Origin: a phage
Length of the DNA: 64,000 nucleotides
Sequence record: PZ445551.1
Direction: 5' to 3' (one strand)
Shown here in pieces: positions 2,931 through 55,817 of the stretch; position 1 is the stretch's first letter, and each line of letters starts with the position of its first letter. Position numbers and translations under genes: made by a program. The notes beneath the pieces are model-generated. The model worked only from the letters and a program-made list of their open reading frames with translations. It was not told the DNA's origin and ran no database searches.

Positions 2931-2933
2931 ATC

Positions 2934-22166: not shown

Positions 22167-23132
22167 CTAGTCTTCTTTTTCAGGGAAGATTAAACTTGCA
22201 ATAACACCCAGCCCAAGAGTACCTAACACAATATACATACTGATCGTCGGATCAATGTGTGCTGGCAGGAAACTCACTTTTGCGTGCAGAGTTTCTGCAA
22301 ACGGGTGATACATCAGTTTTACACCCACAAATACCAGGACTACGATAACTGCTTTCTCCAGATGAACCAAATACTTCAGTGCAACACTAAGAACAAAGAA
22401 CAGAGCACGTAAACCTAAGATTGCACAGAGCATCGAAGAGAACACCAGCAGAGGTTCTTGTGTCACTGCAATTACTGCTGGAACAGAGTCTACTGCAAAG
22501 ATTACGTCAACCATTTCCATTACAAACACACAAACCAGAGCCGGAGTTGCTACACGAACACCATTTTTGATTGTGAAGAACTTCTCACCATCCATCTGAT
22601 CAGATACAGGGAACAGCTTACGAACAATGCGAGTAGCCCAGTGTTTAGAGTAATCAACTTCTGCATCATTATCTCCAGCGAATACCATTTTAGCCGCACA
22701 GAAAAGGATGACAGCACCGAAGAAGATATTAACATACCAGCCCAAACTCAACAAGTAAGTACCTACTGCTACAAACACACCTCGGAAGACAATCGCACCT
22801 GCAATACCCCAAAGTAGAATCTTGTGTTGCAAGTGTGTGCTTTTAATACCAAAACTTGCGAATACTGCCACAAATACTACTAAGTTATCTACAGAAAGAG
22901 ATTTCTCCAACACATACCCACTCAAGAACAAGCTCGCAAAATCAGCACCGTGTTGGAAGTATACAAAACCATAGTAGGCTAATGATACCCCAATCCAGAA
23001 AATTGACCAACCAACTGCCGATTTAAATGAAATCTCTTTGTTTTCTCTGTGTCCAAAGAAATCAATACAAATCGACAACACTAAAATACCCACTAAAACA
23101 ACCACATCAATAATTGGGAAACCCAGTTGCAT
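22167..23132 (-). CDS. TerC-family integral membrane protein
   Basis: Multi-pass membrane protein with TerC signatures (EKSLSVDNLVVF, DSVPAVIAVTQ, ILGLRALFF). Confidence 0.85.
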   Translation of the reverse strand: MQLGFPIIDVVVLVGILVLSICIDFFGHRENKEISFKSAVGWSIFWIGVSLAYYGFVYFQHGADFASLFLSGYVLEKSLSVDNLVVFVAVFASFGIKSTHLQHKILLWGIAGAIVFRGVFVAVGTYLLSLGWYVNIFFGAVILFCAAKMVFAGDNDAEVDYSKHWATRIVRKLFPVSDQMDGEKFFTIKNGVRVATPALVCVFVMEMVDVIFAVDSVPAVIAVTQEPLLVFSSMLCAILGLRALFFVLSVALKYLVHLEKAVIVVLVFVGVKLMYHPFAETLHAKVSFLPAHIDPTISMYIVLGTLGLGVIASLIFPEKED

Positions 23133-23150
23133 TCTTTTCTCCTCTTTAAT

Positions 23151-23169
23151 GCGGAGGACAATCCTCCGC
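23151..23169. other. Palindromic stem-loop (GCGGAGGA-caa-TCCTCCGC) upstream of the TerC RBS
   Basis: Perfect 8-bp stem in the intergenic region. Confidence 0.4.
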
Positions 23170-23209
23170 TCTATGTCTTATACTATAAACTGTTTTTAAA
23201 GAAAGTCAA

Positions 23210-44800: not shown

Positions 44801-44817
44801 GTTTTTATAGGTGTGTT

Positions 44818-45044: not shown

Positions 45045-45458
45045 TTACAAATTTATTTTAGACGAGCTACCGGCGATCAACCTTCCAACCAGTGCCCCCT
45101 GGTATGTTAGCCCCGCCTTTACGCCGTGGGGGTGGCGCTTCCTCTTCTGTATGTAAAACAGTATAAGCCCGATCCCTGGGCTTGTCAAGATTATTTTTTG
45201 TTTTCTTGCCAGGATAGGACACCTAACCAAAAATACATGTCGCCCCGCGCCCCCTGGTGGGATCTTGCTTTCCCCGCCGCCACTGCAAGCCCATAGATAA
45301 CCATTTGCGAACGTATCAAAATGATCTATTTCTTCCACCTTATGATCGCCCAGGTTGAGAACGGTTTCAACCTTTAAGCCCGTTGCGCTTGCTACCTGGT
45401 GCACCGTGCCGCCTTGCCAGCCTAATGAGTGCATGAGGTGTGAAGTAGTATTTGTCAT
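45045..45458 (-). CDS. Hypothetical ORF inside a GC-rich island (coding status uncertain)
   Basis: 137-aa ORF on the opposite strand from flanking genes; region is visibly GC-richer than its surroundings; no clear SD. Confidence 0.25.
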   Translation of the reverse strand: MTNTTSHLMHSLGWQGGTVHQVASATGLKVETVLNLGDHKVEEIDHFDTFANGYLWACSGGGESKIPPGGAGRHVFLVRCPILARKQKIILTSPGIGLILFYIQKRKRHPHGVKAGLTYQGALVGRLIAGSSSKINL

Positions 45459-45829
45459 GGTATCGCCCTTTCTTTGATGTGTGCCCTGGTTGGCGCGGTA
45501 GAAAGATAATAGCCCTTTCCTTTATAGATAGCAAGCAAAAAAGAAATGAAAAAAAGATTAAAAAAGGGGTTGACGTTCCTCACCTGGTAGCGTATTATTC
45601 ATCTTGTCGAGGGGGGCGAGGCACAACGACAATAAACAAAAGGAGGGCGCAATGTAGGACGGGCAAAGGTGAGGATCTCCACAATCCACCGTCACAATAA
45701 CATTACTTATAAAAGGTTGATAACGATGATCAAGAAAGAAAACAGCTTGACGGTTGGAACGATTAACGCTATCATTTTCGCCGTTCCATTTTGGGTTGTA
45801 GTAGCGGTTATTATCTTTTAAAAATATTC

Positions 45830-45887
45830 TTGACAACGTTTTTTAATCTGATAAGATGTATCACATAGGGCGGCAATAGTGCCGCTC
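45830..45887 (+). promoter_or_regulatory. sigma70-like promoter (TTGACA -35) + 5' GC stem-loop cassette
   Basis: TTGACA at 45830; stem-loop GGGCGGC-aatagt-GCCGCTC; ATG at 45910. Confidence 0.55.
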
Positions 45888-45909
45888 ATAACAGAAGAGA
45901 GAAATAATC

Positions 45910-46182
45910 ATGGCATCATATAGCGCATCAATGATCGTAACGGGCATCACTGGTAAACCTATGCGCGGTGGCGGATCTTTCGCTAACATCAATATTGATG
46001 GGCGTTTATCCCTGGACGCAGCGATCACAGTGGCACGGGAAACGTTTAAAAAAGAATGTAATTTCAATAAACAAGATTATCTCGGTTTCGCTATTGAAAA
46101 AACCGCGCGCTTTGTTGATTATAAAAGCCCGAAAATGGTTGATACTACACTAAAAGCGCAAGATGTAGCATTTTTGCTTTAA
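45910..46182 (+). CDS. Hypothetical early protein
   Basis: 90-aa ORF behind a promoter/stem-loop cassette. Confidence 0.6.
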   Translation: MASYSASMIVTGITGKPMRGGGSFANINIDGRLSLDAAITVARETFKKECNFNKQDYLGFAIEKTARFVDYKSPKMVDTTLKAQDVAFLL

Positions 46183-46185
46183 GGC

Positions 46186-46246
46186 TTGACACTGAAAAAT
46201 AATTTGGTAATATATACTACATAGGGCGGGGAAATGGTTTCCCGCC
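46186..46246 (+). promoter_or_regulatory. sigma70-like promoter + 5' GC stem-loop cassette
   Basis: TTGACA at 46186; stem-loop GGGCGGGG-aaatggttt-CCCGCC; ATG at 46269. Confidence 0.55.
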
Positions 46247-46268
46247 AAATCAAAGAAAGGGTAACACA

Positions 46269-46631
46269 ATGAGCAAGCAAATCAATACTATCATGTTAAA
46301 CCTGGTATCTTTCCGCGATGACGTGAAAAATCTTTCGCGTGATGCAGTGGATGCACGGATCGAAAGCTATCGCTCACAGATCGCAACATTACCGCTAAAA
46401 CGTGATCAACATGCCGCTAATATGATGCTTAATGCTATGCTTAAAAAGATGATTCAATGTGATCTTACCCTGGCTTATGAATATGCTGGCGATCTCTTTG
46501 TAACATACAATAAGCCCGTTCCAGGTATGAGCACAACCGAAGAATTGCATGCCTTAAATCTGCGACAAGATGCATGGGATAATATGCGCCGCGTTATGGT
46601 ATGGGTAGAAAGCGGCAAAATTTACGCATAA
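46269..46631 (+). CDS. Hypothetical early protein
   Basis: 120-aa ORF behind a cassette. Confidence 0.6.
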   Translation: MSKQINTIMLNLVSFRDDVKNLSRDAVDARIESYRSQIATLPLKRDQHAANMMLNAMLKKMIQCDLTLAYEYAGDLFVTYNKPVPGMSTTEELHALNLRQDAWDNMRRVMVWVESGKIYA

Positions 46632-46670
46632 AGGCTTTACATTACACGAAAACCTGATAAGCTATCTTAA

Positions 46671-46690
46671 AGCGGGAATAGTTCCCGCTT
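46671..46690 (+). promoter_or_regulatory. 5' GC stem-loop (GCGGGAA-tag-TTCCCGC); upstream promoter weak or unclear
   Basis: Same class of stem-loop as the other cassettes, about 18 nt before ATG 46708. Confidence 0.4.
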
Positions 46691-46707
46691 TCATAGGATA
46701 AAACTTT

Positions 46708-46854
46708 ATGAAACAATATGTAATGAGTATTCACACCAAAAACGGCGCTACTGTTACGACTCCGGCACGGTTTGCACTTGTAAACCGTTGCAAGAGACTA
46801 AAACGAGAGTTAAAAAATAACCGTGCAACGGGCTTTAAACGCTGGGGAGGATAA
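46708..46854 (+). CDS. Small basic protein (48 aa, below the ORF-track threshold)
   Basis: ATG 46708 directly after the stem-loop; Lys/Arg-rich; hand-translated. Confidence 0.45.
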   Translation: MKQYVMSIHTKNGATVTTPARFALVNRCKRLKRELKNNRATGFKRWGG

Positions 46855-46856
46855 TC

Positions 46857-47117
46857 TTGTTTTTTCTAAAAGTTTTTGATAATGTGATCGCTTTTGAACA
46901 TGCTACAACGTTCGACCTAGCGAGATACGCTATCAGGTTTAAAGATAATGTTTATCCCCGTGCTGGAGGCGGTTACACTATTTTTAATCATCGTAACGCT
47001 CAATTAACGGATATAACTAATCCAGATCCTGGAGTGTATCGCATAGGCTGGCTACCGTCAAAAGACGCGGCAAGCATGTTTAAGGTGTGTAAACTACTAA
47101 CAGAAGAGGCAAATTAG
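46857..47117 (+). CDS. Hypothetical early protein (TTG start)
   Basis: 86-aa ORF; SD GGGGAGG 5 nt upstream of TTG. Confidence 0.5.
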   Translation: MFFLKVFDNVIAFEHATTFDLARYAIRFKDNVYPRAGGGYTIFNHRNAQLTDITNPDPGVYRIGWLPSKDAASMFKVCKLLTEEAN

Positions 47118-47118
47118 C

Positions 47119-47664
47119 ATGGGGCGTGAGTATGTGATCCAGTCCTGGGTAAAGCATGACGCTAATGATCCGCGCATAATACCAGATGACATGATCGATC
47201 ACATGGTAGGGTATAGCGGGGAGCAGATAGGAAATCGAGCGGCAAAGAGCAACGGCAACACAAAGGCGCGATCCGTTCGCCCTGGTTGGCTGGCAAATGG
47301 TAACGCTGACATTGCAAGCGCCGCAGATCCAAGCGATGACGCTAAAAATAATCCCTTATACAGCATTGATCCGGCTTTTAAGGTGTTAGAAGAGTATCCC
47401 GCTAAATTAGCCGCACTAGATAAGGCATACGAAGAAAAGCGCATGGCATGGACGGTATACAACACCGCTAAAATGGTGCTAGATGCAAAATTGATTAAAG
47501 CCCAGGAGAAGATCAATAAACTTGTTGCAGTAGCGCAAGAGGAAGACCAGGAGGAAGAGGAAGAAATCATGCCTACCCTGGAAGAGGAAGAGATCCAGCC
47601 ATACATGCCGACGGAAGAGGAAAAAAGACAAGCCCTAAAAAATTATGAAAATTGCATTGTGTAA
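47119..47664 (+). CDS. Hypothetical early protein with strongly acidic C-terminus
   Basis: 181-aa ORF; C-terminal QEEDQEEEEEIMPTLEEEE. Confidence 0.6.
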   Translation: MGREYVIQSWVKHDANDPRIIPDDMIDHMVGYSGEQIGNRAAKSNGNTKARSVRPGWLANGNADIASAADPSDDAKNNPLYSIDPAFKVLEEYPAKLAALDKAYEEKRMAWTVYNTAKMVLDAKLIKAQEKINKLVAVAQEEDQEEEEEIMPTLEEEEIQPYMPTEEEKRQALKNYENCIV

Positions 47665-47667
47665 GGC

Positions 47668-47723
47668 TTGACATATGCAAACAAGCCCCGTAATATGTAC
47701 CACATAAAGCGGGGCAACGCCCC
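47668..47723 (+). promoter_or_regulatory. sigma70-like promoter (TTGACA...TAATAT) + GC stem-loop GGGGC-aac-GCCCC
   Basis: Boxes and stem-loop read directly. Confidence 0.5.
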
Positions 47724-47745
47724 ATAAGGTGAAATAAAAAATCAC

Positions 47746-47773
47746 TTGACACCTGAAATCAGTAAGCTATAAT
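47746..47773 (+). promoter_or_regulatory. Consensus sigma70 promoter (TTGACA-N16-TATAAT)
   Basis: Exact -35 and -10 hexamers with a 16-nt spacer, 37 nt upstream of ATG 47811. Confidence 0.65.
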
Positions 47774-47810
47774 GCTTATATAGATTGAAACATTACTAAG
47801 GAATAAAAGC

Positions 47811-47990
47811 ATGGCTATTATTGCAAAAACTGAGATCGTAGGTTTAGATTCTATCATCCTGGCATATGAGGAAGCTATAGAAATGTATGTAGTGACCTAT
47901 GGTGATTATGTGCGTGAATACGAATACATTGATCTTGCTTTCGAATGTTACATTCGCCAGGTCAATAAAGCCTATGATGATTATCGTTAA
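47811..47990 (+). CDS. Small hypothetical protein (59 aa, below the ORF-track threshold)
   Basis: ATG 47811 after SD AAGGAATAA; hand-translated to TAA at 47988-47990. Confidence 0.5.
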   Translation: MAIIAKTEIVGLDSIILAYEEAIEMYVVTYGDYVREYEYIDLAFECYIRQVNKAYDDYR

Positions 47991-48085
47991 AAGTTTTAGT
48001 CTTGTGCTATTGACAACGAACGATAGTACAAGCATAATAACTTTTATCGGGAATACTCCTAACTAATCAAAAGAGATTAAAGACT

Positions 48086-48451
48086 ATGGCTAAAAATATC
48101 AATGTTTCTGCTTATGCTACCCTGGCTAACACTGCTAAAATTGAACTATCCAGCATTGAAGCGGTACATATTAGCGCCCGTCGCTGGTTTCAAAAGTCTT
48201 ATGGTAATACTTATTTCTCTTTGATGGTTGACGTTGAGATCGGCGGTAAACTGATTGAAGTCGTTAACGTTCCGTTTCACTATGGCTACGGGGATCATTT
48301 TGATACCGTTGCCCTAGAAGAGTTTAGCAAGGTTGTCAACCTGGAAGGTAAAGAGTTTTCAAATTATGCCTACCTTTCCCGTTTTTGCCGTGATAATGGG
48401 ATCGCTGTATACAGTCATGCAAGCGATGTTAAACGTAAAAAAGATTTATAA
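48086..48451 (+). CDS. Hypothetical early protein
   Basis: 121-aa ORF. Confidence 0.6.
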   Translation: MAKNINVSAYATLANTAKIELSSIEAVHISARRWFQKSYGNTYFSLMVDVEIGGKLIEVVNVPFHYGYGDHFDTVALEEFSKVVNLEGKEFSNYAYLSRFCRDNGIAVYSHASDVKRKKDL

Positions 48452-48457
48452 AAAGCA

Positions 48458-48516
48458 TTGACAGCACGAATAAAAAGCATATAATACTTATATCGAGAGC
48501 GGGAATAGTTCCCGCC
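48458..48516 (+). promoter_or_regulatory. Consensus sigma70 promoter (TTGACA-N16-TATAAT) + 5' stem-loop GCGGGAA-tag-TTCCCGC
   Basis: Boxes and stem-loop read directly; ATG at 48541. Confidence 0.6.
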
Positions 48517-48540
48517 TCACTGAAAAAAGAGATTAACATC

Positions 48541-48780
48541 ATGGCTAAATCTAAAATGTTCTTAGGTCACAAAAACAAAACTCATTGGAATGTAAGCCTT
48601 TGGATCAACAACGATGAAGGTTTTTATAATCTTGCGCGTGAATTTATCGCAGCTAACACCAATAAGAATGACGCAGCGCGTGATATGATGTTATTTCTTG
48701 AAAGTATGGATCAAGATAAAACGCCAGACGGTTACAAGTTCAGTAAAACTGCGATCCGCGCCGCGATGGTTGGAATGTAA
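48541..48780 (+). CDS. Hypothetical early protein
   Basis: 79-aa ORF. Confidence 0.55.
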   Translation: MAKSKMFLGHKNKTHWNVSLWINNDEGFYNLAREFIAANTNKNDAARDMMLFLESMDQDKTPDGYKFSKTAIRAAMVGM

Positions 48781-48885
48781 AGGAGACATAAAAATGAAAC
48801 ATCGTTCGACCTATCTCACAAAACGTTTTAGCTTAGATCATAAATTGGGCTATTACGGAAGAAATAGAAAATAATTTGACACTGT

Positions 48886-48935
48886 TTAAAATTCTGGTAT
48901 AGTTTATCACATAGGGCGGGAAATGGTTTCCCGCC
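48886..48935 (+). promoter_or_regulatory. sigma70-like promoter + 5' GC stem-loop cassette
   Basis: TTGACA at 48886; -10 TATAGT; stem-loop GGGCGGG-aaatggttt-CCCGCC; ATG at 48958. Confidence 0.55.
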
Positions 48936-48957
48936 AAATGAAAGAAAGGTTATCATT

Positions 48958-49185
48958 ATGGCTATCGTTATTGTTCGCGTATCCGGCACGGTTGGAATCT
49001 CCCAGGTAGTAGCAGTTATCACCGAGAAGAAAGGGGATGATCTTCACTCTTCCTTGAATAGCTGGGCGGTCGCTAACTTCGGGCAATGGTCGAGCGTTGA
49101 GTACATCGAATCCTACCAGGTGCCAACGATTAGCCTAACCGATCTAAATGTTGATCGCTTGTTGTGCCTGGATCAATTAAACTAA
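48958..49185 (+). CDS. Hypothetical early protein
   Basis: 75-aa ORF. Confidence 0.55.
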   Translation: MAIVIVRVSGTVGISQVVAVITEKKGDDLHSSLNSWAVANFGQWSSVEYIESYQVPTISLTDLNVDRLLCLDQLN

Positions 49186-49193
49186 AAATAATA

Positions 49194-49252
49194 TTGACAA
49201 GATAACTAAAATCAGTAAAATGTAATGCATAGGGCGGCAATAGTGCCGCTCC
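49194..49252 (+). promoter_or_regulatory. sigma70-like promoter + 5' GC stem-loop cassette
   Basis: TTGACA at 49194; -10 TAAAAT; stem-loop GGGCGGC-aatagt-GCCGCTC. Confidence 0.55.
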
Positions 49253-49272
49253 TAGTGAGAGAGATTATCAAG

Positions 49273-49488
49273 ATGGCTAATATCCGCACACTGTTAAAAA
49301 ATGCAAGTCAAGTTTTATTTTCAGATGACGAGTATTTCAACAAAGACATTACAGGCGTGAAAAATTTAAAAGACGTGAAGGATGTTATCGGTATTCGTGG
49401 ATCTTTACGTAAAGGTGACATATACGGTAACAAGGTGCAATATAAACTGTCAAAAGATTATGATTTTACTTTGACATTTATTTCATAA
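49273..49488 (+). CDS. Hypothetical early protein
   Basis: Start at ATG 49273 (MANIRTL) downstream of the stem-loop; 71 aa. Confidence 0.55.
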   Translation: MANIRTLLKNASQVLFSDDEYFNKDITGVKNLKDVKDVIGIRGSLRKGDIYGNKVQYKLSKDYDFTLTFIS

Positions 49489-49494
49489 AACCGC

Positions 49495-49555
49495 TTGCAA
49501 TACTACAAAAATAAAGTAAACTGTATTCATCAAGGCGGTGGAATAGCCCACCGCC
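49495..49555 (+). promoter_or_regulatory. Promoter-like boxes (TTGCAA...TAAACT) + stem-loop GGCGGTGG-aatagc-CCACCGCC
   Basis: Perfect 8-bp stem; promoter boxes are weaker than in the other cassettes. Confidence 0.45.
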
Positions 49556-49579
49556 TAACAAAGAGAAGAGGAAAACATC

Positions 49580-49750
49580 ATGATCACTTTTGCTACCCGT
49601 GAAGCCGCTCGCAACGTTGCACGTAAAGTTAACGCCGCCAACCTGGGCGCTACGCTTAAAGCCCCGGTAAAAGATGAATCAGGGAAATGGATCTTCCCTG
49701 GTCTGCGTCACGCTGATAAGCTGGGAACATTAACGTTAAAAAATAAATAA
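49580..49750 (+). CDS. Small hypothetical protein (56 aa, below the ORF-track threshold)
   Basis: ATG 49580 after SD GAGAAGAGGAAAA; hand-translated. Confidence 0.45.
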   Translation: MITFATREAARNVARKVNAANLGATLKAPVKDESGKWIFPGLRHADKLGTLTLKNK

Positions 49751-49757
49751 TATCCGC

Positions 49758-49816
49758 TTGACAGTAGCATGATTTATAAGTAAAGTAACAACAACGGCGG
49801 GAAATGGTTTCCCGCC
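49758..49816 (+). promoter_or_regulatory. sigma70-like promoter + 5' GC stem-loop cassette
   Basis: TTGACA at 49758; stem-loop GGCGGG-aaatggttt-CCCGCC; ATG at 49837. Confidence 0.55.
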
Positions 49817-49836
49817 ATCAATAAAGAGATAAGATT

Positions 49837-50196
49837 ATGAAATCAGTAAAAGCAATTAAAACTTACATTTTGTCGGCTATTTCTTTTGATGGTACTACAA
49901 CCGAAAAAGAAAAAATCACCGAACTGATGCGCCGTTTTAACTCTGAATACTGGTATCCCGATAATCAAAAACGTTACAATTATAACGTGATTAAGGCGAT
50001 AGCCTCATGGTTACAAGGTTTACCGTCAGAAATCAATATTGCTTTTGATTATAACGAGATCGATCACTTGTTAATTGAATGGAAGTACATAAAAGAAACA
50101 AGCAAAGAAACAACCGTTACCCGTGAGCGGGAAAATTATTGGTTATATATTGCAAGCATGATCGTAATCCTGGCAAAACAGCATAACGTGGCGTAA
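49837..50196 (+). CDS. Hypothetical early protein
   Basis: 119-aa ORF. Confidence 0.6.
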   Translation: MKSVKAIKTYILSAISFDGTTTEKEKITELMRRFNSEYWYPDNQKRYNYNVIKAIASWLQGLPSEINIAFDYNEIDHLLIEWKYIKETSKETTVTRERENYWLYIASMIVILAKQHNVA

Positions 50197-50211
50197 TTAA
50201 GAGGAAGAAAC

Positions 50212-50349
50212 ATGAACGCATCACAGCAGATCGAAAAATTCAACCGCAGCAAGGCGCGTAAAGATTGGAACGAAGAGATCACCAAAAAAGGCGACAAGCG
50301 GAACAAAACAAAGAGAGATCGCAGCACAAAAAGATACTGGAACGAATAA
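50212..50349 (+). CDS. Small basic protein (45 aa, below the ORF-track threshold)
   Basis: ATG 50212 after SD AAGAGGAAG; Lys/Arg-rich; followed by a terminator. Confidence 0.45.
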   Translation: MNASQQIEKFNRSKARKDWNEEITKKGDKRNKTKRDRSTKRYWNE

Positions 50350-50351
50350 CA

Positions 50352-50378
50352 AAAAGGGCGCAATAAGCGCCCTTTTAG
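50352..50378 (+). terminator. Rho-independent terminator (GGGCGC-aataa-GCGCCC + TTTT)
   Basis: Perfect stem followed by a T run. Confidence 0.6.
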
Positions 50379-50466
50379 CTTATATAGAGGCTTGTTACCC
50401 ATAGGCAATGGTAACGCCAGGATAAGCCTATAAACCACGTTAGACAGCTTTACAGGAGCTTTAAAA

Positions 50467-50649
50467 ATGAAATTAGACGAAATAAGCAAGGCACTAGCCC
50501 AGGGGCAAAGGTTATGCGCCCGATATCGTGATCAATATGGCTTCATAACTAGCGGCGTGATCCTGGGGATTGAAGGCAATAAGATTTTTATTGACACGTT
50601 GAAAAACGTTGTATATAGTGACAATATAATCTCAATAAAACATATATGA
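50467..50649 (+). CDS. Hypothetical small protein
   Basis: 60-aa ORF; SD AGGAG upstream. Confidence 0.5.
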   Translation: MKLDEISKALAQGQRLCARYRDQYGFITSGVILGIEGNKIFIDTLKNVVYSDNIISIKHI

Positions 50650-50657
50650 GGCAAGAA

Positions 50658-51059
50658 ATGAAAAAATTATTGATCGCTGGTTTAATCTCTTTTGGCATGG
50701 TTGGAACATCTAGCGCGGCGATATCCTCCACAGTAGCAGAATTAAGCGCCGTTGATGCAATGGAAAACGTCATGCTTATTAATAACGCGATCCCCGATGA
50801 AATCATGGAGGATTCACACATGATCGCTTATGGTGCTGTTACACAACTAACGGCAAAAATAGATAAATCTATTGTTAACGGCTTAAATGAAGATGTGCCA
50901 TGTGAAATTATTACCAGTGTGCTGACTACTCAAAATTTTACGCCGTGGTTAAAAAGTATTCAAAAAGTACACAGTACAGCCGCAGATCGTAGCAATGAAA
51001 AACTAGTGTCAGCACTTGCAACGTATACCCTAGCAAAATGCACCGAGATAAAAGATTGA
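50658..51059 (+). CDS. Secreted / periplasmic hypothetical protein
   Basis: Signal peptide MKKLLIAGLISFGMVGTSSA; start at ATG 50658. Confidence 0.55.
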   Translation: MKKLLIAGLISFGMVGTSSAAISSTVAELSAVDAMENVMLINNAIPDEIMEDSHMIAYGAVTQLTAKIDKSIVNGLNEDVPCEIITSVLTTQNFTPWLKSIQKVHSTAADRSNEKLVSALATYTLAKCTEIKD

Positions 51060-51084
51060 CAACATAGAAAGCACGTTATAAGAT
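51056..51084 (+). promoter_or_regulatory. sigma70-like promoter (TTGACA-N17-TAAGAT), no stem-loop
   Basis: Hexamers read directly upstream of ATG 51107. Confidence 0.45.
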
Positions 51085-51106
51085 ACACACAACAAAGGAG
51101 AACTAC

Positions 51107-51409
51107 ATGAACGGCATAGCTAAAACGTTTTTTCTTTTTTCTGGTGTAAATGATCCATCAATAAAAGTCGATAGTGTAAAAGAAAACAATACTATCACCG
51201 CTAAATTGTTTCAAGATGAAACAAATAACGTGCTAATCATTAATCTTAAAGAAGTAACTAAAGGTTATTATACTATTGCTTACCATGCGATTTATCATGC
51301 TGGTACTAGTGAGGAAGTGCAAACAAGCAACAACGAAAGCGCGGCGCTACCTGGTGATCTGGTGCTGGGCGTTATCAGTTTAATTGTCAATGATTTTTTT
51401 AAGGAGTAA
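51107..51409 (+). CDS. Hypothetical protein
   Basis: 100-aa ORF; SD AAAGGAG. Confidence 0.55.
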   Translation: MNGIAKTFFLFSGVNDPSIKVDSVKENNTITAKLFQDETNNVLIINLKEVTKGYYTIAYHAIYHAGTSEEVQTSNNESAALPGDLVLGVISLIVNDFFKE

Positions 51410-51738
51410 AACCATGCCCTATTTACATTTATTTTTCGGTATCTTATTGACAGGATCTTTTTTCTTCTGTATGCTTGTTTCTATTGTAAACCACGTTTTA
51501 AGACATTAAGGAAACAGCATGAAAATTATTCCCGTACAATATAGCGTAATAAATCCAGCATACGAGGAAGGAAGGAAAACAAGCATGGCTTTATGTTGTA
51601 TTGCTACTATAGCCATGTTGTTATATATTGTGTTTTAATAGGTTTTATAGTTGTACGCTTTAAGGGCTTGACAATTTTTTGTTATGCTTTAAACTATATC
51701 TTGAAAACGGCAAAGGCCGCAAACAAAAGGGTAAAATT

Positions 51739-52062
51739 ATGAAATCTGTGATCGGTGTTTATTTGGATAACTCTGATTTTTTCTATCATCGCGCTCGTTT
51801 CCTTGATGCGATTGAAATGATAGAATCAGGCTTTAAAGAGTATCGCCTTGCACATGATGACCTGGAAGCATTACAGGGCAATAGTGTTTTTACATTGCAA
51901 GCTAAAGCACTATGCAAAAGCCGGATCGACATTGCGAGCAAAAAGATAGAACGCGGCATGTCCTGGTTGCGCACCGCAGAAATCAACATGGGGCAATGGT
52001 ACGGCGAAAACTTAGAAAATAAACATACTTTTGTCAATGTAGAAAATATTGAAGATTATTGA
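51739..52062 (+). CDS. Hypothetical protein
   Basis: Start at ATG 51739 (MKSVIGV); TTGACA at 51668 upstream; 107 aa. Confidence 0.55.
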   Translation: MKSVIGVYLDNSDFFYHRARFLDAIEMIESGFKEYRLAHDDLEALQGNSVFTLQAKALCKSRIDIASKKIERGMSWLRTAEINMGQWYGENLENKHTFVNVENIEDY

Positions 52063-52125
52063 TTGACAGCACACCTAACGGGTAGTATATTGTATCTCAT
52101 AGAGCGGGGAAATGGTTTCCCCGCC
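52063..52125 (+). promoter_or_regulatory. sigma70-like promoter + 5' GC stem-loop cassette
   Basis: TTGACA at 52063; -10 TATATT; stem-loop GAGCGGGG-aaatggttt-CCCCGCC. Confidence 0.55.
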
Positions 52126-52144
52126 TTAAAAGAAGAGATAAGCT

Positions 52145-52429
52145 ATGAAGATCACAAAAGCACTTTCCAACTATGCAGCACGTCGCGGATTATGTTTAAC
52201 CGTTGAAAATTTAGGGAAAGAAGATTTTTTGTGCTTTTGGGAGCTTGAGAATGATAATGAGTGGATCTTCTCTTATTCTATCTGCGAAGATCAAAACGGT
52301 TGTTTATTAACCTGGCGCGGTAATATCTATTTACCGGAAGAAATCAAAGAAGAATTACCAGGCACGATCATGACTGAGAAACAGCTTAAGGAAGTGATCA
52401 ATTTTGTAGGGCAAAACATTAAAAAATAA
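52145..52429 (+). CDS. Hypothetical early protein
   Basis: 94-aa ORF. Confidence 0.55.
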   Translation: MKITKALSNYAARRGLCLTVENLGKEDFLCFWELENDNEWIFSYSICEDQNGCLLTWRGNIYLPEEIKEELPGTIMTEKQLKEVINFVGQNIKK

Positions 52430-52430
52430 T

Positions 52431-52489
52431 TTGACACTAGGCAAACAACGTAGTAAAGTTTATCACATAGGGCGGCAATAGTGCCGCTC
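52431..52489 (+). promoter_or_regulatory. sigma70-like promoter + 5' GC stem-loop cassette
   Basis: TTGACA at 52431; -10 TAAAGT; stem-loop GGGCGGC-aatagt-GCCGCTC. Confidence 0.55.
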
Positions 52490-52510
52490 ATAACAGAAGA
52501 GAAACAAATC

Positions 52511-52681
52511 ATGATCCCGACTATGTTTTATGTATCGCGCAAAGGTCACAATATTTTTTGGTCTGAAGATTTAAATGAAGCTATGACGTTTGCCCGTGAT
52601 CGTGTCGCTATCGGTGGCGTTAACATCACTGTAACCGATGAAAACGGCATTGAATACTATAACGGCGACGATGAAGAGTAA
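52511..52681 (+). CDS. Small hypothetical protein
   Basis: Start at ATG 52511 downstream of the stem-loop; 56 aa. Confidence 0.5.
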   Translation: MIPTMFYVSRKGHNIFWSEDLNEAMTFARDRVAIGGVNITVTDENGIEYYNGDDEE

Positions 52682-52688
52682 TCAACAA

Positions 52689-52706
52689 GGCGGGATTAAT
52701 CCCGCC
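52689..52706 (+). promoter_or_regulatory. GC stem-loop GGCGGGAT-ta-ATCCCGCC preceding a small ORF
   Basis: Perfect palindrome; no clear promoter hexamers upstream. Confidence 0.35.
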
Positions 52707-52725
52707 TGTATTAAAGGGTAATATA

Positions 52726-52863
52726 ATGAAAACTTTCAACGCAACAGCCTCGACAATTGGTTATATTATTACAGTGCAAGCCGTTGACCTGGTAGCGGCA
52801 GCAAACAAGATTAAAAAGATGATCCCAACAGGCAGCGAATTTTCCGTTTGGGAAGTAAAATAA
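52726..52863 (+). CDS. Small hypothetical protein (45 aa, below the ORF-track threshold)
   Basis: ATG 52726 after AAAGGGTAATATA; hand-translated. Confidence 0.4.
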   Translation: MKTFNATASTIGYIITVQAVDLVAAANKIKKMIPTGSEFSVWEVK

Positions 52864-52866
52864 ATC

Positions 52867-52924
52867 TTGACAATAGTTTATTACTTGATAGAATGTATTT
52901 CGTAGGGCGGCAATAGTGCCGCTC
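52867..52924 (+). promoter_or_regulatory. sigma70-like promoter + 5' GC stem-loop cassette
   Basis: TTGACA at 52867; -10 TAGAAT; stem-loop GGGCGGC-aatagt-GCCGCTC. Confidence 0.55.
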
Positions 52925-52945
52925 ACAACTAAAAGAGAAATCATC

Positions 52946-53140
52946 ATGGCGCTTAAAAAATTAACAAGCAATACTCGTTGGGATGAAATCGACGGGGAAG
53001 TATACATTTTCGCCCGTAAACCAGGTGATCAAAAATGGTCAAAGGCTTTTACTTGCCACCCTGCAACAATAGATCTAATAAAAAGTAAAGGTTTACGTGA
53101 AGCAGTAGCGAGAAGTTTACTGATCCCTTATAAAAAATAG
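52946..53140 (+). CDS. Small hypothetical protein
   Basis: Start at ATG 52946 (MALKKL); 64 aa. Confidence 0.5.
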   Translation: MALKKLTSNTRWDEIDGEVYIFARKPGDQKWSKAFTCHPATIDLIKSKGLREAVARSLLIPYKK

Positions 53141-53141
53141 T

Positions 53142-53203
53142 TTGACAATATGCTGTTATCTGGTAAAGTGTACGACATAGGGCGGGGCAATAAGGCAACG
53201 CCC
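53142..53203 (+). promoter_or_regulatory. sigma70-like promoter + 5' GC stem-loop cassette
   Basis: TTGACA at 53142; -10 TAAAGT; stem-loop GGGCGGGGC ... GCAACGCCC. Confidence 0.5.
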
Positions 53204-53221
53204 ATTAATGAGGGTAGAATC

Positions 53222-53326
53222 ATGTTAGAGAAAATTTTCACGGTTGTAGTAGTTGGCCTGGCGTTATCGGTTGGATTGGTTGCAACTATGGCTAACATGA
53301 TCCTATCTTCCCACGGTATTGGATAA
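53222..53326 (+). CDS. Small hydrophobic peptide (34 aa)
   Basis: ATG 53222 after GAGGGTAGAATC; one transmembrane-like segment; hand-translated. Confidence 0.35.
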   Translation: MLEKIFTVVVVGLALSVGLVATMANMILSSHGIG

Positions 53327-53336
53327 GGTGAATCAA

Positions 53337-53552
53337 ATGATCACGAATAAGACAGGTAAAACAGAATTTTTACGCGGCTTGCAAATAGGTAAACCTGAGA
53401 TCTGGCATTGCACTAAATCCGCGCATAATGAAATGAAAGATTTTACCGCTACTTTACAACGTGTTAAAATATCTATCACGCAGAAAAAAGCCTTGTTAGT
53501 AGTAGAAAACGAGATACCGCAAACCATTATTATTGTCGAGCGTACAGCATGA
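53337..53552 (+). CDS. Hypothetical small protein
   Basis: Start at ATG 53337 with SD AAGGTGA; 71 aa. Confidence 0.5.
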   Translation: MITNKTGKTEFLRGLQIGKPEIWHCTKSAHNEMKDFTATLQRVKISITQKKALLVVENEIPQTIIIVERTA

Positions 53553-53935
53553 AAACTGAAATCATTATTGAAATCATCAACGGTTATAAAGAAGCCTTTA
53601 TTTTTGCTGAATCAGCCAGGGATCATGAAGGCTATTTTATTGATAACTTAGACGATTATGATTTTTCAGATCAAGCCCATCAGCGGATCATTCATGACGT
53701 AGCGGCTTATTGTGATGCCAATGATGCTGCTATCTCTGAGGCAATGAGCGACGGCGCTACAGCAAACCAGATCGGGAATGATTTACATTTTACCCGTAAC
53801 GGTCACGGCGTAGGCTTTTGGGATCGCCCTGAAATATACACTACTAACACCGCCAACCGCCTAACAAATGCAGCTAAATTAATGCCATCGGTGCATGCTT
53901 ACATTGGTGAAGATAATTTGATTTATATTGAATAA
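53549..53935 (+). CDS. Hypothetical acidic protein
   Basis: 128-aa ORF, Asp/Glu-rich; 4-nt overlap with the upstream gene. Confidence 0.6.
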   Translation: MKTEIIIEIINGYKEAFIFAESARDHEGYFIDNLDDYDFSDQAHQRIIHDVAAYCDANDAAISEAMSDGATANQIGNDLHFTRNGHGVGFWDRPEIYTTNTANRLTNAAKLMPSVHAYIGEDNLIYIE

Positions 53936-53941
53936 AAAGTA

Positions 53942-54000
53942 TTGACACCGATCCCCCATATGGTATTATTTACCACGTAGGCGGGAAATGGTTTCCCGCC
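53942..54000 (+). promoter_or_regulatory. sigma70-like promoter + 5' GC stem-loop cassette
   Basis: TTGACA at 53942; -10 TATTAT; stem-loop GGCGGG-aaatggttt-CCCGCC. Confidence 0.55.
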
Positions 54001-54023
54001 AGGTAATCAAAAAGGTAAATACT

Positions 54024-54413
54024 ATGCGCAACCTGGTTTCTGTTTCTAACGTTGAAAAATTTCAATCCTTGCAGGGTATCGTTAACAACGTAGCGCCTTT
54101 TTTAGTCAATGGCTTGATTGCAAAGATGAAAAATAAACATCATGCGGCATGGTCTGCTTACTGCTTTGATAATGATGAAAAAGCGGCTGAAATGATGTTA
54201 GATATGCTGTTAAATAGTGTAGAAACATCTTTACCGGAAAACATCGCAGAAGAGATCACCTATCGTTATAATATGGCGATCACTTACCAGGAGGTTGCGC
54301 AATTTAATATGATGGATGATGACGAACAACAGGATCAGGAAATGTTTTGGGAGTATGCAGATCGTCAATCGGCTTTTGATGAAAAGTTAGCGATGTATTA
54401 TAACGAATATTAA
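54024..54413 (+). CDS. Hypothetical acidic protein (candidate DNA mimic)
   Basis: Start at ATG 54024; 129 aa; C-terminal MMDDDEQQDQEMFWEY. Confidence 0.55.
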   Translation: MRNLVSVSNVEKFQSLQGIVNNVAPFLVNGLIAKMKNKHHAAWSAYCFDNDEKAAEMMLDMLLNSVETSLPENIAEEITYRYNMAITYQEVAQFNMMDDDEQQDQEMFWEYADRQSAFDEKLAMYYNEY

Positions 54414-54423
54414 TACACGGTAA

Positions 54424-54455
54424 AAGAAAGGGGCGCACTAAGCGCCCTTTTTTGT
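54424..54455 (+). terminator. Rho-independent terminator (GGGCGC-actaa-GCGCCC + TTTTTT)
   Basis: Perfect stem with a T6 run. Confidence 0.7.
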
Positions 54456-54799
54456 ATTCTTTTTTCACGATGGAAGTAACACGTAAAGAATAAACGTAAA
54501 AGGTGGTGTAAAACAGCCTAAAACCGATTATAACCGCTTAAACAAGGTAGTAATGACTAATCACCTTGCCAGGATGAAAAAGCTGTTATAAAGCTATTTA
54601 GAGCGTTTAAAGCACATAGGAAATAATTTGCTTTTTATCTTGCCTTTTATCCTGCTTTTGATTATTATTATGGAACGGGCGGCACCTGGGGACAGGGGAA
54701 GGTAATCACCGGAAGATCCCGCTATATATTGATAGCTAATATCTATTAAACAACAAAACATCAAAGGAATAAACTATCAAATCTTTACAATTCTACCTA

Positions 54800-54859
54800 T
54801 TGACACAGGATCACCCTTATAATAAGATGTATCCAGTAGGGCGGGAAATGGTTTCCCGC
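54800..54859 (+). promoter_or_regulatory. sigma70-like promoter + 5' GC stem-loop cassette
   Basis: TTGACA at 54800; -10 TAAGAT; stem-loop GGGCGGG-aaatggttt-CCCGC. Confidence 0.55.
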
Positions 54860-54878
54860 TTGATATAGGAATCATACC

Positions 54879-55112
54879 ATGATCGAACAAATTAAAAGCA
54901 CTACACCAAATGTTAACGGCAATGTTTCACACTTTATCGGGGATAATGAAAGGGGTACACCATACGCCGCCGTAACCGTGCAACCTAATGGCGATTATTG
55001 GTTTACCGTGTACGGATCATATTCTTTCGGACGCCCGGCACATGATAAGATCTTGCAAGCGGTTAAGCCTACTGGGAAGAATATCACAGCAGAAAAATTT
55101 TATAAAAAATAG
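54879..55112 (+). CDS. Hypothetical early protein
   Basis: 77-aa ORF. Confidence 0.55.
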   Translation: MIEQIKSTTPNVNGNVSHFIGDNERGTPYAAVTVQPNGDYWFTVYGSYSFGRPAHDKILQAVKPTGKNITAEKFYKK

Positions 55113-55113
55113 C

Positions 55114-55142
55114 TTGCTTTATAGTCTCTGTTAATTTATAGT
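55114..55142 (+). promoter_or_regulatory. sigma70-like promoter (TTGCTT-N17-TATAGT)
   Basis: Hexamers read directly upstream of ATG 55188. Confidence 0.45.
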
Positions 55143-55187
55143 TATCGTGTAGGGCAAACAATTTTAAACGGTAAACGAGGAATCACC

Positions 55188-55571
55188 ATGAGCAATATCA
55201 GCAACCTGGCGGCTACTGTAAACGGTAAAGATTTTAACGGCGCTGTAGATCGTGATCCTATGTGGTGCTTATCAGTGTTTAAAGGCGATCTGGTTGAAGT
55301 TAGAACAACCGAAGGGTATAGCGATGATTATAAATGCGAGATCCATTTACACAACTGGTACACGGGTAAAACTTATGCGCTGAATCATGCGTTTATCGGC
55401 AAGGTTGAATATAGAGAAATGATCGACGAAGAAACGGGGCAAGATTTTAGCGAGCATGTTTATATTCGTTCCGAGACATTAGCCGAACGTTTGATCGAGA
55501 AAATGAAAGCAAAAAATAAAATTAATTTATCTCATTGGATTGATATAACAAACGATCCAGCTTATCAGTAA
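55188..55571 (+). CDS. Hypothetical early protein
   Basis: 127-aa ORF; SD GAGGAATCACC. Confidence 0.6.
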   Translation: MSNISNLAATVNGKDFNGAVDRDPMWCLSVFKGDLVEVRTTEGYSDDYKCEIHLHNWYTGKTYALNHAFIGKVEYREMIDEETGQDFSEHVYIRSETLAERLIEKMKAKNKINLSHWIDITNDPAYQ

Positions 55572-55583
55572 ATAACATTTCAT

Positions 55584-55613
55584 ACCAGGGCGCACAAAGC
55601 GCCCTTTCTTTTT
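55584..55613 (+). terminator. Rho-independent terminator (AGGGCGC-acaaa-GCGCCCT + TTCTTTTT)
   Basis: Perfect stem with T-tract right after the 55188-55571 stop. Confidence 0.7.
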
Positions 55614-55817
55614 ACCTAAATAAAGATGATAGCTTTTACCTATCAAAAACGTTCACCGAAAAAAGTGAATAGATCGCGGTATCGAGCTAATCAAGGAGCA
55701 GATGAACAACCATACCATGAAGATCATAAGGCGCTTACAACGTGTTTTAGACCGCTTATTTTTAATTTCTCAATGTAACTATCTGGCAAAAACAGCCTTT
55801 TTCTTGTCTTTCCTCTT

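What the first reader, a model, noticed from the sequence alone, without database searches (positions are those of the whole stretch)
45830..55142. Array of about 15 promoter-plus-5'-stem-loop cassettes, each driving one or two small ORFs
Across roughly 10 kb, a near-consensus sigma70 promoter (TTGACA-N16/17-TAnnnT) is followed a few bases later by a conserved (c)ATAGGGCGG-loop-CCGCC stem-loop, then an SD and ATG. Loop sequences fall into a few classes (aatagt, aaatggttt, aatagc) while the stems show compensatory changes, which argues for selection on RNA structure. The hairpins are followed by A-rich rather than U-rich sequence, so they are not terminators; they would sit at the extreme 5' end of the transcripts. 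This resembles the promoter-early stem-loop (PeSL) cassettes described for hyperplastic regions of T4-type phages, but here in a phage with T7-type replication genes. The small ORFs are likely host-takeover or anti-defence proteins.
Basis: seen in the sequence. Interest (0 to 1): 0.72.

Follow-up and report, generated by a model that had tools for sequence, protein, structure and literature searches.

The report
Phage early-gene promoter-plus-hairpin cassette array
A 9-kb stretch of a phi92-type E. coli phage carries 15 copies of a small "strong promoter, then RNA hairpin, then ribosome site" unit, each in front of one to a few tiny genes of unknown function; the hairpin probably shields the start of each early mRNA from decay, and related phages swap genes at these units.

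Summary
Fifteen near-consensus sigma-70 promoters on the + strand (45830-54879) are each followed, about 10 nt after the -10 box, by a stable GC-rich hairpin, a purine-rich ribosome-binding site and an ATG. One more copy lies on the minus strand at 23209, and one promoterless hairpin at 52688.

The window is Escherichia phage VivaForever, a 146-kb phi92-type myovirus (Stephanstirmvirinae). It is not a T7-type phage.

The same architecture recurs in Phapecoctavirus, Vequintavirinae and jumbo Asteriusvirus phages. Stem sequences differ between copies but stay self-complementary.

In T4-type PeSLs, scored here with the same script on RB49, the hairpin sits inside or across the promoter. Here it lies inside the cassette's own transcript, so this is not a PeSL in anatomy.

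It does behave like one in evolution. Synteny breaks among nine relatives cluster in the cassettes, and one whole promoter-hairpin-gene module is shared with a jumbo phage.

Most likely mechanism (inferred, not shown): a 5'-terminal hairpin protects early mRNAs from RppH/RNase E. The repeated cassettes also serve as recombination sites.

Public records annotate the hairpin as a "PHIRE promoter" (phAPEC8) or as reverse-strand terminators (Paula).

Verdict: a new variant of a known kind, of moderate interest.

The parts
45830..45912 (+). Cassette 1: -35 45830-35, -10 45852-57, hairpin 45868-87 (GGGCGGCAatagTGCCGCTC), ATG 45910
46186..46271 (+). Cassette 2: -10 46208-13, hairpin 46225-46 (GGCGGGGAAatggTTTCCCGCC), ATG 46269
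46636..46710 (+). Cassette 3 (TTTACA -35): hairpin 46669-91 (AAAGCGGGAAtagTTCCCGCTTT), ATG 46708; drives 3 ORFs to 47664
47668..47813 (+). Cassette 4: short hairpin 47711-23 (GGGGCaacGCCCC), followed by a second, hairpin-less consensus promoter at 47746-73 and ATG 47811
48010..48088 (+). Promoter with a decayed hairpin (GGGAAtacTCC); the ESCO37 ortholog keeps GGGAAtacTTCCC; ATG 48086
48458..48543 (+). Cassette 5: consensus TTGACA-16-TATAAT, hairpin 48499-515 (GCGGGAAtagTTCCCGC), ATG 48541 (79-aa DUF7249 gene). The module from the -35 box to the stop codon is shared with the jumbo phage JNE01
48876..48960 (+). Cassette 6: hairpin 48915-35 (GGCGGGAAAtggTTTCCCGCC), ATG 48958
49194..49275 (+). Cassette 7: hairpin 49232-51 (GGGCGGCAatagTGCCGCTC), ATG 49273
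49495..49582 (+). Cassette 8 (TTGCAA -35): hairpin 49533-56 (AGGCGGTGGaatagcCCACCGCCT), ATG 49580
49758..49839 (+). Cassette 9: hairpin 49796-816 (GGCGGGAAAtggTTTCCCGCC), ATG 49837
50352..50376 (.). Canonical two-way intrinsic terminator (AAAAGGGCGC..GCGCCCTTTT) ending block 1 of the array
52063..52147 (+). Cassette 10: hairpin 52104-24 (GCGGGGAAAtggTTTCCCCGC), ATG 52145
52431..52513 (+). Cassette 11: hairpin 52470-89 (GGGCGGCAatagTGCCGCTC), ATG 52511. Orthologs in Paula, KKE7M, PD06 and NHEP1 carry GGGCGGGAAAtggTTTCCCGCTC instead
52688..52728 (+). Promoterless hairpin 52688-707 (AGGCGGGAttaaTCCCGCCT), then SD and ATG 52726
52867..52948 (+). Cassette 12: hairpin 52905-24 (GGGCGGCAatagTGCCGCTC), ATG 52946
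53142..53224 (+). Cassette 13: interrupted hairpin 53180-203 (GGGCGGGGCAATAAGGCAACGCCC), ATG 53222; drives 3 ORFs to 53935
53942..54026 (+). Cassette 14: hairpin 53980-54000 (GGCGGGAAAtggTTTCCCGCC), ATG 54024
54425..54453 (+). Canonical intrinsic terminator with a T-run, ending block 2
54800..54881 (+). Cassette 15: hairpin 54839-61 (GGGCGGGAAAtggTTTCCCGCTT, two G.U pairs at the base), ATG 54879
55114..55190 (+). Weak promoter with a degenerate hairpin remnant (GTGTAGGGCAAAC..), ATG 55188 (Phage_30_8 family gene); terminator at 55587-605
23130..23209 (-). Outlying cassette on the minus strand: TTGACT-16-TATAGT, CATAGA, hairpin 23169-23151 (GCGGAGGAttgTCCTCCGC), ATG 23132; drives a 321-aa membrane protein

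Best explanation
Each unit is a self-contained early-gene expression cassette read by the host sigma-70 RNA polymerase. It has an AT-rich upstream stretch, a near-consensus -35/-10 (often with an extended -10 TG) and a start site predicted at the A of the conserved CATAG.

The transcript therefore begins with about 3-5 unpaired bases followed by a stable hairpin, then an unstructured purine-rich leader with the SD. The hairpin most likely works as a 5'-terminal stabiliser: a base-paired 5' end is a poor substrate for RppH and for the 5'-end-dependent entry of RNase E, so these short early mRNAs would last longer.

The roughly 60-85-nt cassettes are repeated in direct orientation in front of nearly every gene or mini-operon. 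They are therefore also the places where modules are deleted, inserted, replaced and passed between phage lineages.

Shown here: the anatomy, its conservation, the constraint on the stem, and the breakpoints.

Inferred: the transcription start site, the effect on mRNA stability, and that cassettes cause recombination rather than merely mark it.
For: Anatomy and position
- 15 cassettes; in 12 the core stem starts 9-12 nt after the -10 box.
- In an unbiased scan of 64 strong promoters from 7 loci in 6 genera, 32 of the 38 nearby GC-rich hairpins start 8-15 nt after the -10 box, with a mode of 10.
- Folding the predicted leaders gives 3-4 free 5' nt, a hairpin of -14 to -19 kcal/mol and an open SD region.

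Structure is conserved rather than sequence
- Stems differ between copies: GGGCGGCA/TGCCGCTC, GGCGGGAAA/TTTCCCGCC, AGGCGGTGG/CCACCGCCT, GCGGAGGA/TCCTCCGC, GGGGCAAG/TTTGCCCC, AGGGAGAA/TTCTCCCT.
- On 29 loop-anchored variants, 6 of 9 pairs change on both sides. The covariation score is 0.54 against 0.24 in shuffles (0 of 500 reach it) and at most 0.20 when partners are slid.
- An orthologous cassette in front of the same gene changes C:G to U:A and gains a G:C pair between VivaForever and JNE01.
- Among near-identical variants, single substitutions fall in loops (9) and flanks (14), but rarely in the core stem (about 3).

Not a terminator
- The tails are A-rich. The phage places canonical T-run terminators elsewhere in the array.

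Mechanistic precedent
- RppH and RNase E need single-stranded 5' ends, which explains the long-known stabilising effect of 5' secondary structure (PMC3997798).

Modularity
- 24 of 42 unique alignment breakpoints against 9 relatives fall in hairpin cassettes, which make up 15% of the sequence (p = 4e-10).
- Adjacent alignments often overlap by 11-46 nt inside a cassette.
- The module from the -35 box to the stop codon at 48458-48780 is shared with Asteriusvirus JNE01.
- Cassette copies share exact tracts of the order of 25-40 nt.
Against: - No transcription start site or mRNA half-life data exist for this phage group in the literature I could search.
- Tests for strand-specific (sense RNA) selection were inconclusive. 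Internal G.U against A.C mismatches were 3 against 4. Single-substitution events were 1 G.U against 2 A.C. Only the first pair outside the core favours G.U, 17 against 10.
- Hairpins were selected as hairpins, so the 'percent paired' figure is partly circular.
- Half of the strong promoters in these phages lack the hairpin, and some orthologs have lost it (48010, 55114), so it is not essential.
- If the start site is the upstream A, 5 nt would be unpaired, which is borderline for protection.
- Breakpoint enrichment is weak once ORFs are excluded (24 of 32 against 57% expected, p = 0.026). Selection for intact genes could therefore explain much of it.
Confidence: 0.55

Rival explanations
1. PeSL-type attenuator. 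The hairpin stops or damps transcription reading in from the upstream cassette, so that each gene is expressed mainly from its own promoter.
For: PeSL stem-loops without classical U-tracts reduced lacZ read-through strongly in RB49 (PMC2839356). There are no terminators between most cassettes here. The promoterless hairpin at 52688 sits between two cistrons.
Against: The hairpin lies downstream of its own promoter, so any termination would equally kill the cassette's own transcript. The tails are A-rich. RB49 PeSL hairpins sit at -24 or -14, not +10. The phage uses canonical T-run terminators where blocks end.
Confidence: 0.1
2. Protein-recognition element. The hairpin, as RNA or as a DNA palindrome at +4 to +25, is bound by a phage or host factor that switches early genes off, antiterminates, or controls translation.
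For: The position next to the start site is fixed. There is a recurrent GGGAA-nnn-TTCCC core and loops of the form (A)TRG. Stems are conserved while loops vary, which also fits a two-half-site operator. The wobble asymmetry does not favour RNA.
Against: Half-site sequences differ widely within one genome while staying self-complementary, which a single sequence-specific binder would not tolerate. Loops vary freely (CAC, AAC, CTC, TGT, ACG). No boxA-plus-boxB arrangement is seen across the classes. No Rfam family matches.
Confidence: 0.15
3. Recombination signal only. The conserved hairpin and promoter persist because they mobilise gene modules, by homologous or site-specific exchange. The RNA hairpin has no expression role.
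For: Breakpoints concentrate in the cassettes and alignments overlap there. Modules are shared across phage families. [quoted passage not shown]
Against: This does not explain the strict +10 spacing from the -10 box, or the maintained complementarity of very different stems. Homology alone needs no palindrome.
Confidence: 0.1
4. The existing database readings are right: the 20-mer is a phage-specific promoter (PHIRE annotation in phAPEC8), or the hairpins are reverse-strand terminators (Paula annotation).
For: GenBank JX561091 labels GTAGGGCGGCAATGGTGCCG a 'putative promoter determined with PHIRE'. LR865361 labels the hairpins as terminators, mostly on the strand opposite the genes.
Against: The 20-mer is simply the 5' arm, loop and part of the 3' arm of the hairpin, and it lies downstream of a near-consensus sigma-70 promoter. 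No reverse-strand genes or U-runs accompany the hairpins: the reverse tail reads CTATGTGATA. The papers read on related phage groups report reliance on host RNA polymerase.
Confidence: 0.02

Closest known systems
PeSL (promoter-early stem-loop) cassettes of T4-type phages (Arbiol et al. 2010, PMC2839356; Comeau et al. 2014, PMC4122927)
   Same: A composite of a strong sigma-70-type early promoter with an AT-rich upstream stretch, a GC stem-loop, an SD and an ATG. It is repeated in front of small ORFans in a plastic early region. Indels and gene replacements between close relatives have their ends in the elements.
   Different: The PeSL stem-loop lies upstream of the promoter, in the -35/-10 spacer, or across the -10 box. 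In RB49 I measured -24 and -14. It was shown to act as a terminator or attenuator for incoming transcription. Here the stem-loop starts about 10 nt after the -10 box and is part of the cassette's own mRNA. The host lineages also differ: Stephanstirmvirinae, Vequintavirinae and Asteriusvirus rather than Straboviridae.
5'-terminal stabilising stem-loops of E. coli mRNAs (ompA, papA, engineered bla; reviewed in PMC3997798)
   Same: A stable hairpin within a few nucleotides of the 5' end, independent of sequence, followed by an accessible ribosome-binding site. This is the mechanism proposed here.
   Different: Those are single-gene features shown by experiment. Here there is a repeated, portable element on dozens of phage early transcripts, and the 5' end and its effect are only predicted.
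Lambda-type nut sites (boxA plus boxB hairpin)
   Same: A small promoter-proximal RNA hairpin in early phage transcripts.
   Different: No boxA-then-boxB order is conserved across the hairpin classes. The loops have 3-6 nt of variable sequence rather than a fixed pentaloop. There is one hairpin per gene rather than one per operon.

Membership tests
PeSL (T4-type promoter-early stem-loop) | Near-consensus sigma-70 early promoter with an AT-rich upstream region | tested here: met
   Promoters score 8 to 12 of 12 against consensus, and six have an extended -10 TG. Upstream TAAAAATA-type tracts are present.
PeSL (T4-type promoter-early stem-loop) | Stem-loop placed upstream of, within, or overlapping the promoter boxes, so that it acts on transcripts coming from upstream | tested here: not met
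   Here 32 of 38 hairpins start 8-15 nt downstream of the -10 box. The same script on RB49 gives -24 (7 cases) and -14 (3 cases). The published description agrees.
PeSL (T4-type promoter-early stem-loop) | Stem-loop is an effective transcription terminator or attenuator | not testable with these tools
   No U-tract follows the hairpins. A functional assay is needed.
PeSL (T4-type promoter-early stem-loop) | Clustered in hyperplastic regions next to ORFans, with indels and replacements between relatives ending in the elements | tested here: met
   24 of 42 unique breakpoints lie in cassettes that make up 15% of the sequence, p = 4e-10. The ORFs have no known function.
5'-terminal stabilising stem-loop (ompA type) | Hairpin within a few nucleotides of the transcript's 5' end | tested here: inconclusive
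   Promoter geometry predicts 3-5 unpaired nt. No start-site data are available.
5'-terminal stabilising stem-loop (ompA type) | A stable structure whose sequence is free to vary | tested here: met
   Folding energies of -14 to -19 kcal/mol with z-scores down to -5.3. Many stem sequences exist with complementarity kept.
5'-terminal stabilising stem-loop (ompA type) | Lengthens mRNA half-life by blocking RppH and 5'-end-dependent RNase E attack | not testable with these tools
   The mechanism is taken from PMC3997798. It needs half-life assays.
Rho-independent terminator | GC-rich hairpin followed directly by a U-run on the transcribed strand | tested here: not met
   The terminator scan flags none of the cassette hairpins on the + strand. 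The tails read AAATCAAAG, ATAACAGAAG and similar.
Lambda nut site | A boxA motif 5' of a boxB hairpin with a conserved pentaloop | tested here: not met
   By inspection of the cassette sequences, no shared boxA lies upstream. The loops are TGG, TAG, ATAG and others.
Any Rfam family | A match at the curated gathering score | tested here: not met
   No matches at gathering threshold. The only sub-threshold hit is RT-17 at E = 0.095.

The most novel reading that the evidence does not exclude
The promoter-hairpin unit is a cross-lineage, plug-and-play gene-cassette system of large virulent enterobacterial phages (Stephanstirmvirinae, Vequintavirinae, jumbo Asteriusvirus). In this reading the hairpin is not just a passive stabiliser but the handle for a dedicated factor, for example a phage protein that marks, caps or protects early transcripts, or one that catalyses cassette exchange. 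That would make it a lytic-phage counterpart of integron-like gene shuffling.
Probability: 0.1. Interest if true: 0.8.

Novelty: new variant of a known kind. Interest (0 to 1): 0.5.

Why it matters
- If the hairpins protect 5' ends, these phages carry a compact, portable rule for making short early mRNAs last in a cell whose RNA decay the phage may be disturbing. The rule would be directly reusable as a natural 5'-UTR part.
- The cassettes also extend the PeSL idea beyond T4-type phages, with a different architecture: regulatory repeats that double as recombination sites for ORFan shuffling. They show modules moving between unrelated phage families.
- In practice, database annotations of these sites as 'PHIRE promoters' or reverse-strand terminators should be corrected.

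Tried and rejected
- **Wobble asymmetry (G.U against A.C) as proof of a sense-strand RNA structure.** Internal mismatches and single-substitution pairs show no bias. Only the first outer pair leans towards G.U. I treat this as inconclusive.
- **MAFFT alignments of the hairpins with flanks.** They were not structure-consistent. I used a gapless loop-anchored set instead.
- **Extra covariance-model hit at 15873-15901.** It is a terminator-like hairpin between genes, not a cassette.
- **Rfam.** No family matches.
- **Pfam and PHROGs on 20 ORFs.** No functional clue emerged.
- **The non-coding stretch 54660-54800.** Its predicted fold is no better than shuffled sequence.
- **The phi92 and PVP-SE1 genome papers.** They are not held in the library, so I cannot exclude that they mention the hairpins.
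- **IMG/VR scan for one hairpin class with its promoter.** It returned 6 contigs. Four are 137-153 kb, matching these phage groups, and two are shorter (97 kb and 15 kb).
- **nut-like, reverse-terminator and PHIRE-promoter readings.** Rejected on anatomy.

Full report
**What the window is.** Window 45800-55200 is 100% identical to Escherichia phage VivaForever (PP925843.1, record 89001-98401, reverse strand). It is 94-98% identical to phi92-type phages of the genus Justusliebigvirus, subfamily Stephanstirmvirinae. The genome is a 146-kb myovirus with tail sheath, baseplate, tRNA and NAD-salvage genes. The window also encodes a DNA polymerase I and a primase/helicase. The region corresponds to phi92 gp225-gp248. 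The phi92 343-bp terminal repeat maps to window 56684-57026. The array therefore lies 1.5-11 kb from the right physical end of the genome and is transcribed towards it.

**The observation.** Reading the sequence and scripted scans give 15 + strand cassettes. Their -35 boxes start at 45830, 46186, 46636, 47668, 48458, 48876, 49194, 49495, 49758, 52063, 52431, 52867, 53142, 53942 and 54800. Each cassette has these parts in order:
- an AT-rich stretch that usually contains the stop codon of the preceding ORF;
- a TTGACA-like -35 box, a 16-17-nt spacer and a TAnnnT -10 box (six have an extended -10 TG);
- a conserved (C)A(C)ATAG;
- a GC-rich hairpin, mostly of 7-10 bp;
- 16-23 nt of purine-rich, unstructured leader carrying a weak SD, and then the ATG.

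Five other promoters in the array lack an intact hairpin (47746, 48010, 51056, 51668, 55114). Two of these carry recognisable remnants, and the 48010 ortholog in ESCO37 still pairs. One hairpin has no promoter (52688-52707). One full cassette lies far away on the minus strand (-35 at 23209, hairpin 23169-23151) in front of a 321-aa membrane protein.

**Is it more than chance?** The strict motif gave 2 matches against 0 in shuffles. A whole-genome scan for 'promoter then GC hairpin' gave 20 hits against 1-5 in shuffles, with 11 of the 20 inside the array. A covariance model built from 29 variants finds the array, the 23146-23176 copy and one unrelated terminator-like hairpin at 15873. It finds nothing in the remaining ~82 kb of the genome. 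The predicted 5' leaders fold into the hairpin with energies of -14 to -19 kcal/mol and z-scores of -1.9 to -5.3.

**Position of the hairpin.** This is the key anatomical fact. I took 64 strong promoters from seven non-redundant loci: VivaForever, ESCO37, phi1_175008, FENT2, POP15, NHEP1 and JNE01. Of the 38 GC-rich hairpins lying within -80 to +100 of the -10 box, 32 start 8-15 nt after it, with a mode of 10. The usual start site is about 7 nt after the -10 box, at a pyrimidine-purine step (established knowledge of E. coli promoters, not tested here). The transcript would then begin at an A of CACATAG, leaving 3-5 unpaired nucleotides before the stem.

**Structure or sequence?** Within one genome and across genera the stems differ but stay self-complementary. 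Examples are GGGCGGCA/TGCCGCTC, GGCGGGAAA/TTTCCCGCC, AGGCGGTGG/CCACCGCCT, GCGGAGGA/TCCTCCGC, GGGGCAAG/TTTGCCCC, GGTGGGGAA/TTCCCCACT and AGGGAGAA/TTCTCCCT.

On a gapless, loop-anchored alignment of 29 variants, 6 of 9 pairs change on both sides. The covariation score is 0.54, against 0.24 in shuffles (0 of 500 reach it) and at most 0.20 when partners are slid. Two caveats apply. The set was chosen for being hairpins. Part of the 'covariation' is also a register shift of the shared GCGG core.

A cleaner case is the orthologous cassette in front of the DUF7249 gene. VivaForever has GCGGGAA-tag-TTCCCGC and the jumbo phage JNE01 has GTGGGGAA-tag-TTCCCCAC, a C:G to U:A change plus one inserted G:C pair. 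Among near-identical variants, single substitutions fall in loops (9) and flanks (14) but seldom in the core stem (about 3). This pattern argues against a single sequence-specific DNA-binding protein and for a structural role.

I could not show that the sense RNA, rather than a symmetric DNA palindrome, is what selection sees. The G.U against A.C counts are balanced, apart from the first outer pair at 17 against 10.

**Not terminators.** The tails are A-rich, and the terminator scan flags no cassette hairpin on the + strand. Canonical GGGCGC...GCGCCC hairpins with T-runs sit at 50352-50376, 54425-54453 and 55587-55605 and divide the array into three blocks. A terminator placed 10 nt after its own promoter would also silence that promoter.

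**Comparison with PeSLs.** The published PeSLs of RB49/phi1, PST and nt-1 combine a sigma-70-type early promoter with a stem-loop. That stem-loop lies just upstream of the promoter, between the -35 and -10 boxes, or over the -10 box. It terminates transcription coming from upstream (PMC2839356; PMC4122927). Running my own offset script on the RB49 plastic region gave hairpins starting at -24 (in the spacer, 7 cases) or -14 (straddling the -10 box, 3 cases). The value here is +10. The element therefore fails the anatomical definition of a PeSL.

It nonetheless shares the evolutionary behaviour. I aligned window 45001-56000 to nine relatives: Paula, ESCO8, KKE7M, muut, PD06, PHB05, phi92, ESCO37 and ZCKP1. 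This gave 42 unique alignment-end clusters. Of these, 24 lie in hairpin cassettes, which occupy 15% of the sequence (p = 4e-10). Most of the 'ORF' cases lie within 10 nt of an ORF end.

Neighbouring alignments often overlap by 11-46 nt inside a cassette, for example 54804/54794 in ESCO8, 53186/53160 in KKE7M and 46245/46200 in ESCO37. That is what exchange between homologous cassettes would leave. In Phapecoctavirus the 46269-46631 module sits in a different order. KKE7M carries, between cassettes 49194 and 49495, a cassette-plus-gene that is also found in the Vequintavirus NHEP1. The 48458-48780 module, running exactly from the -35 box to the stop codon, is shared at 78% identity with Asteriusvirus jumbo phages, and their early regions are full of the same cassette type.

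One caveat matters. When ORFs are excluded the enrichment is modest (24 of 32 against 57% expected, p = 0.026). Selection for intact genes could therefore explain much of the pattern.

**Most likely mechanism.** RppH and the 5'-end-dependent route of RNase E both need a single-stranded 5' end. This accounts for the long-known stabilising effect of 5' hairpins on ompA, papA and bla mRNAs (PMC3997798). The cassette hairpins have the right position, stability and freedom of sequence for that role, and they leave the SD open. I therefore read each unit as a promoter, a 5' protective hairpin and an SD, with the repeats acting secondarily as recombination sites. The start site and any effect on half-life are inferred.

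**What is already on record.** The rV5, CB7, CBB and PA5oct papers describe sigma-70-like early promoters clustered among small ORFs. They do not mention a hairpin after the promoter. The phAPEC8 GenBank record annotates the 20-mer GTAGGGCGGCAATGGTGCCG, which is the 5' arm, loop and part of the 3' arm, as a 'putative promoter determined with PHIRE', right after a 'host dependent promoter'. The Paula record annotates the hairpins as terminators, mostly on the strand opposite the genes. The repeat has therefore been seen but, in my reading, misassigned. The phi92 and PVP-SE1 genome papers were not available.

**The genes.** Twenty ORFs tested all fall in PHROGs of unknown function. Pfam finds only DUF7249 (48541-48780) and Phage_30_8 (55188-55571). 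'Host take-over or anti-defence' is a reasonable guess from position, but nothing here supports it.

**Verdict.** The feature is real and highly non-random. It is best described as a new variant of the promoter-plus-stem-loop cassette idea. It shares its genomic role with PeSLs but has a different architecture, and its probable RNA function is that of a 5'-terminal stabiliser. It is shared by three groups of large enterobacterial phages.

Noticed in passing
window 56684-57026: Homolog (98% identity) of the phi92 343-bp direct terminal repeat. By analogy the physical genome end lies inside the window, about 1.5 kb after the last gene of the cassette array.
   Followed up: partly
window 44380-45830: A ~1.4-kb divergent, mostly non-coding region just upstream of the array. 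It has unusually G- or C-rich tracts (e.g. GAGGGGGGCGAGGCAC, CCCCGCCGCCAC), a conserved promoter-like site and only doubtful small ORFs. The muut record marks repeat_regions at the homologous place.
   Followed up: no
L006 (JNE01) 1485-3627 and other intergenic gaps: The jumbo phage JNE01 has many copies of a CAGTACTG palindrome in its non-coding DNA. The motif sometimes replaces the -35 region in front of a cassette-type hairpin (e.g. 6361-6420).
   Followed up: no
VivaForever record 52440-52530 (outside the window; L004 ~2440-2530): A promoter (TTGACT-17-TAGTAT), then 11 nt, then an unrelated hairpin AGGAGAGCtatGCTCTCCT and an SD, in front of a gene upstream of the ribonucleotide reductase genes. 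It has the same architecture with a different stem and is not found by the covariance model.
   Followed up: partly
window 48541-48780: The 79-aa DUF7249 gene occurs in Stephanstirmvirinae and, in two copies, in Asteriusvirus jumbo phages. Each copy has its own promoter-hairpin cassette.
   Followed up: partly
search results: Several near-identical genomes are deposited as Campylobacter, Pseudomonas (PsgM04F), Acinetobacter (ABPW7) or Serratia (KKP_3264) phages. The host labels look doubtful for what are phi92/phAPEC8-type coliphage genomes.
   Followed up: no
window 54454-54800: A ~350-nt gap without ORFs after a terminator. Some relatives (ESCO8, KKE7M) carry an extra promoter plus a small gene at this place. 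The predicted fold is no better than shuffled sequence.
   Followed up: partly
window 47553-47606: A tandem 27-nt repeat inside ORF 47119-47664 that encodes an acidic Glu-rich stretch.
   Followed up: no
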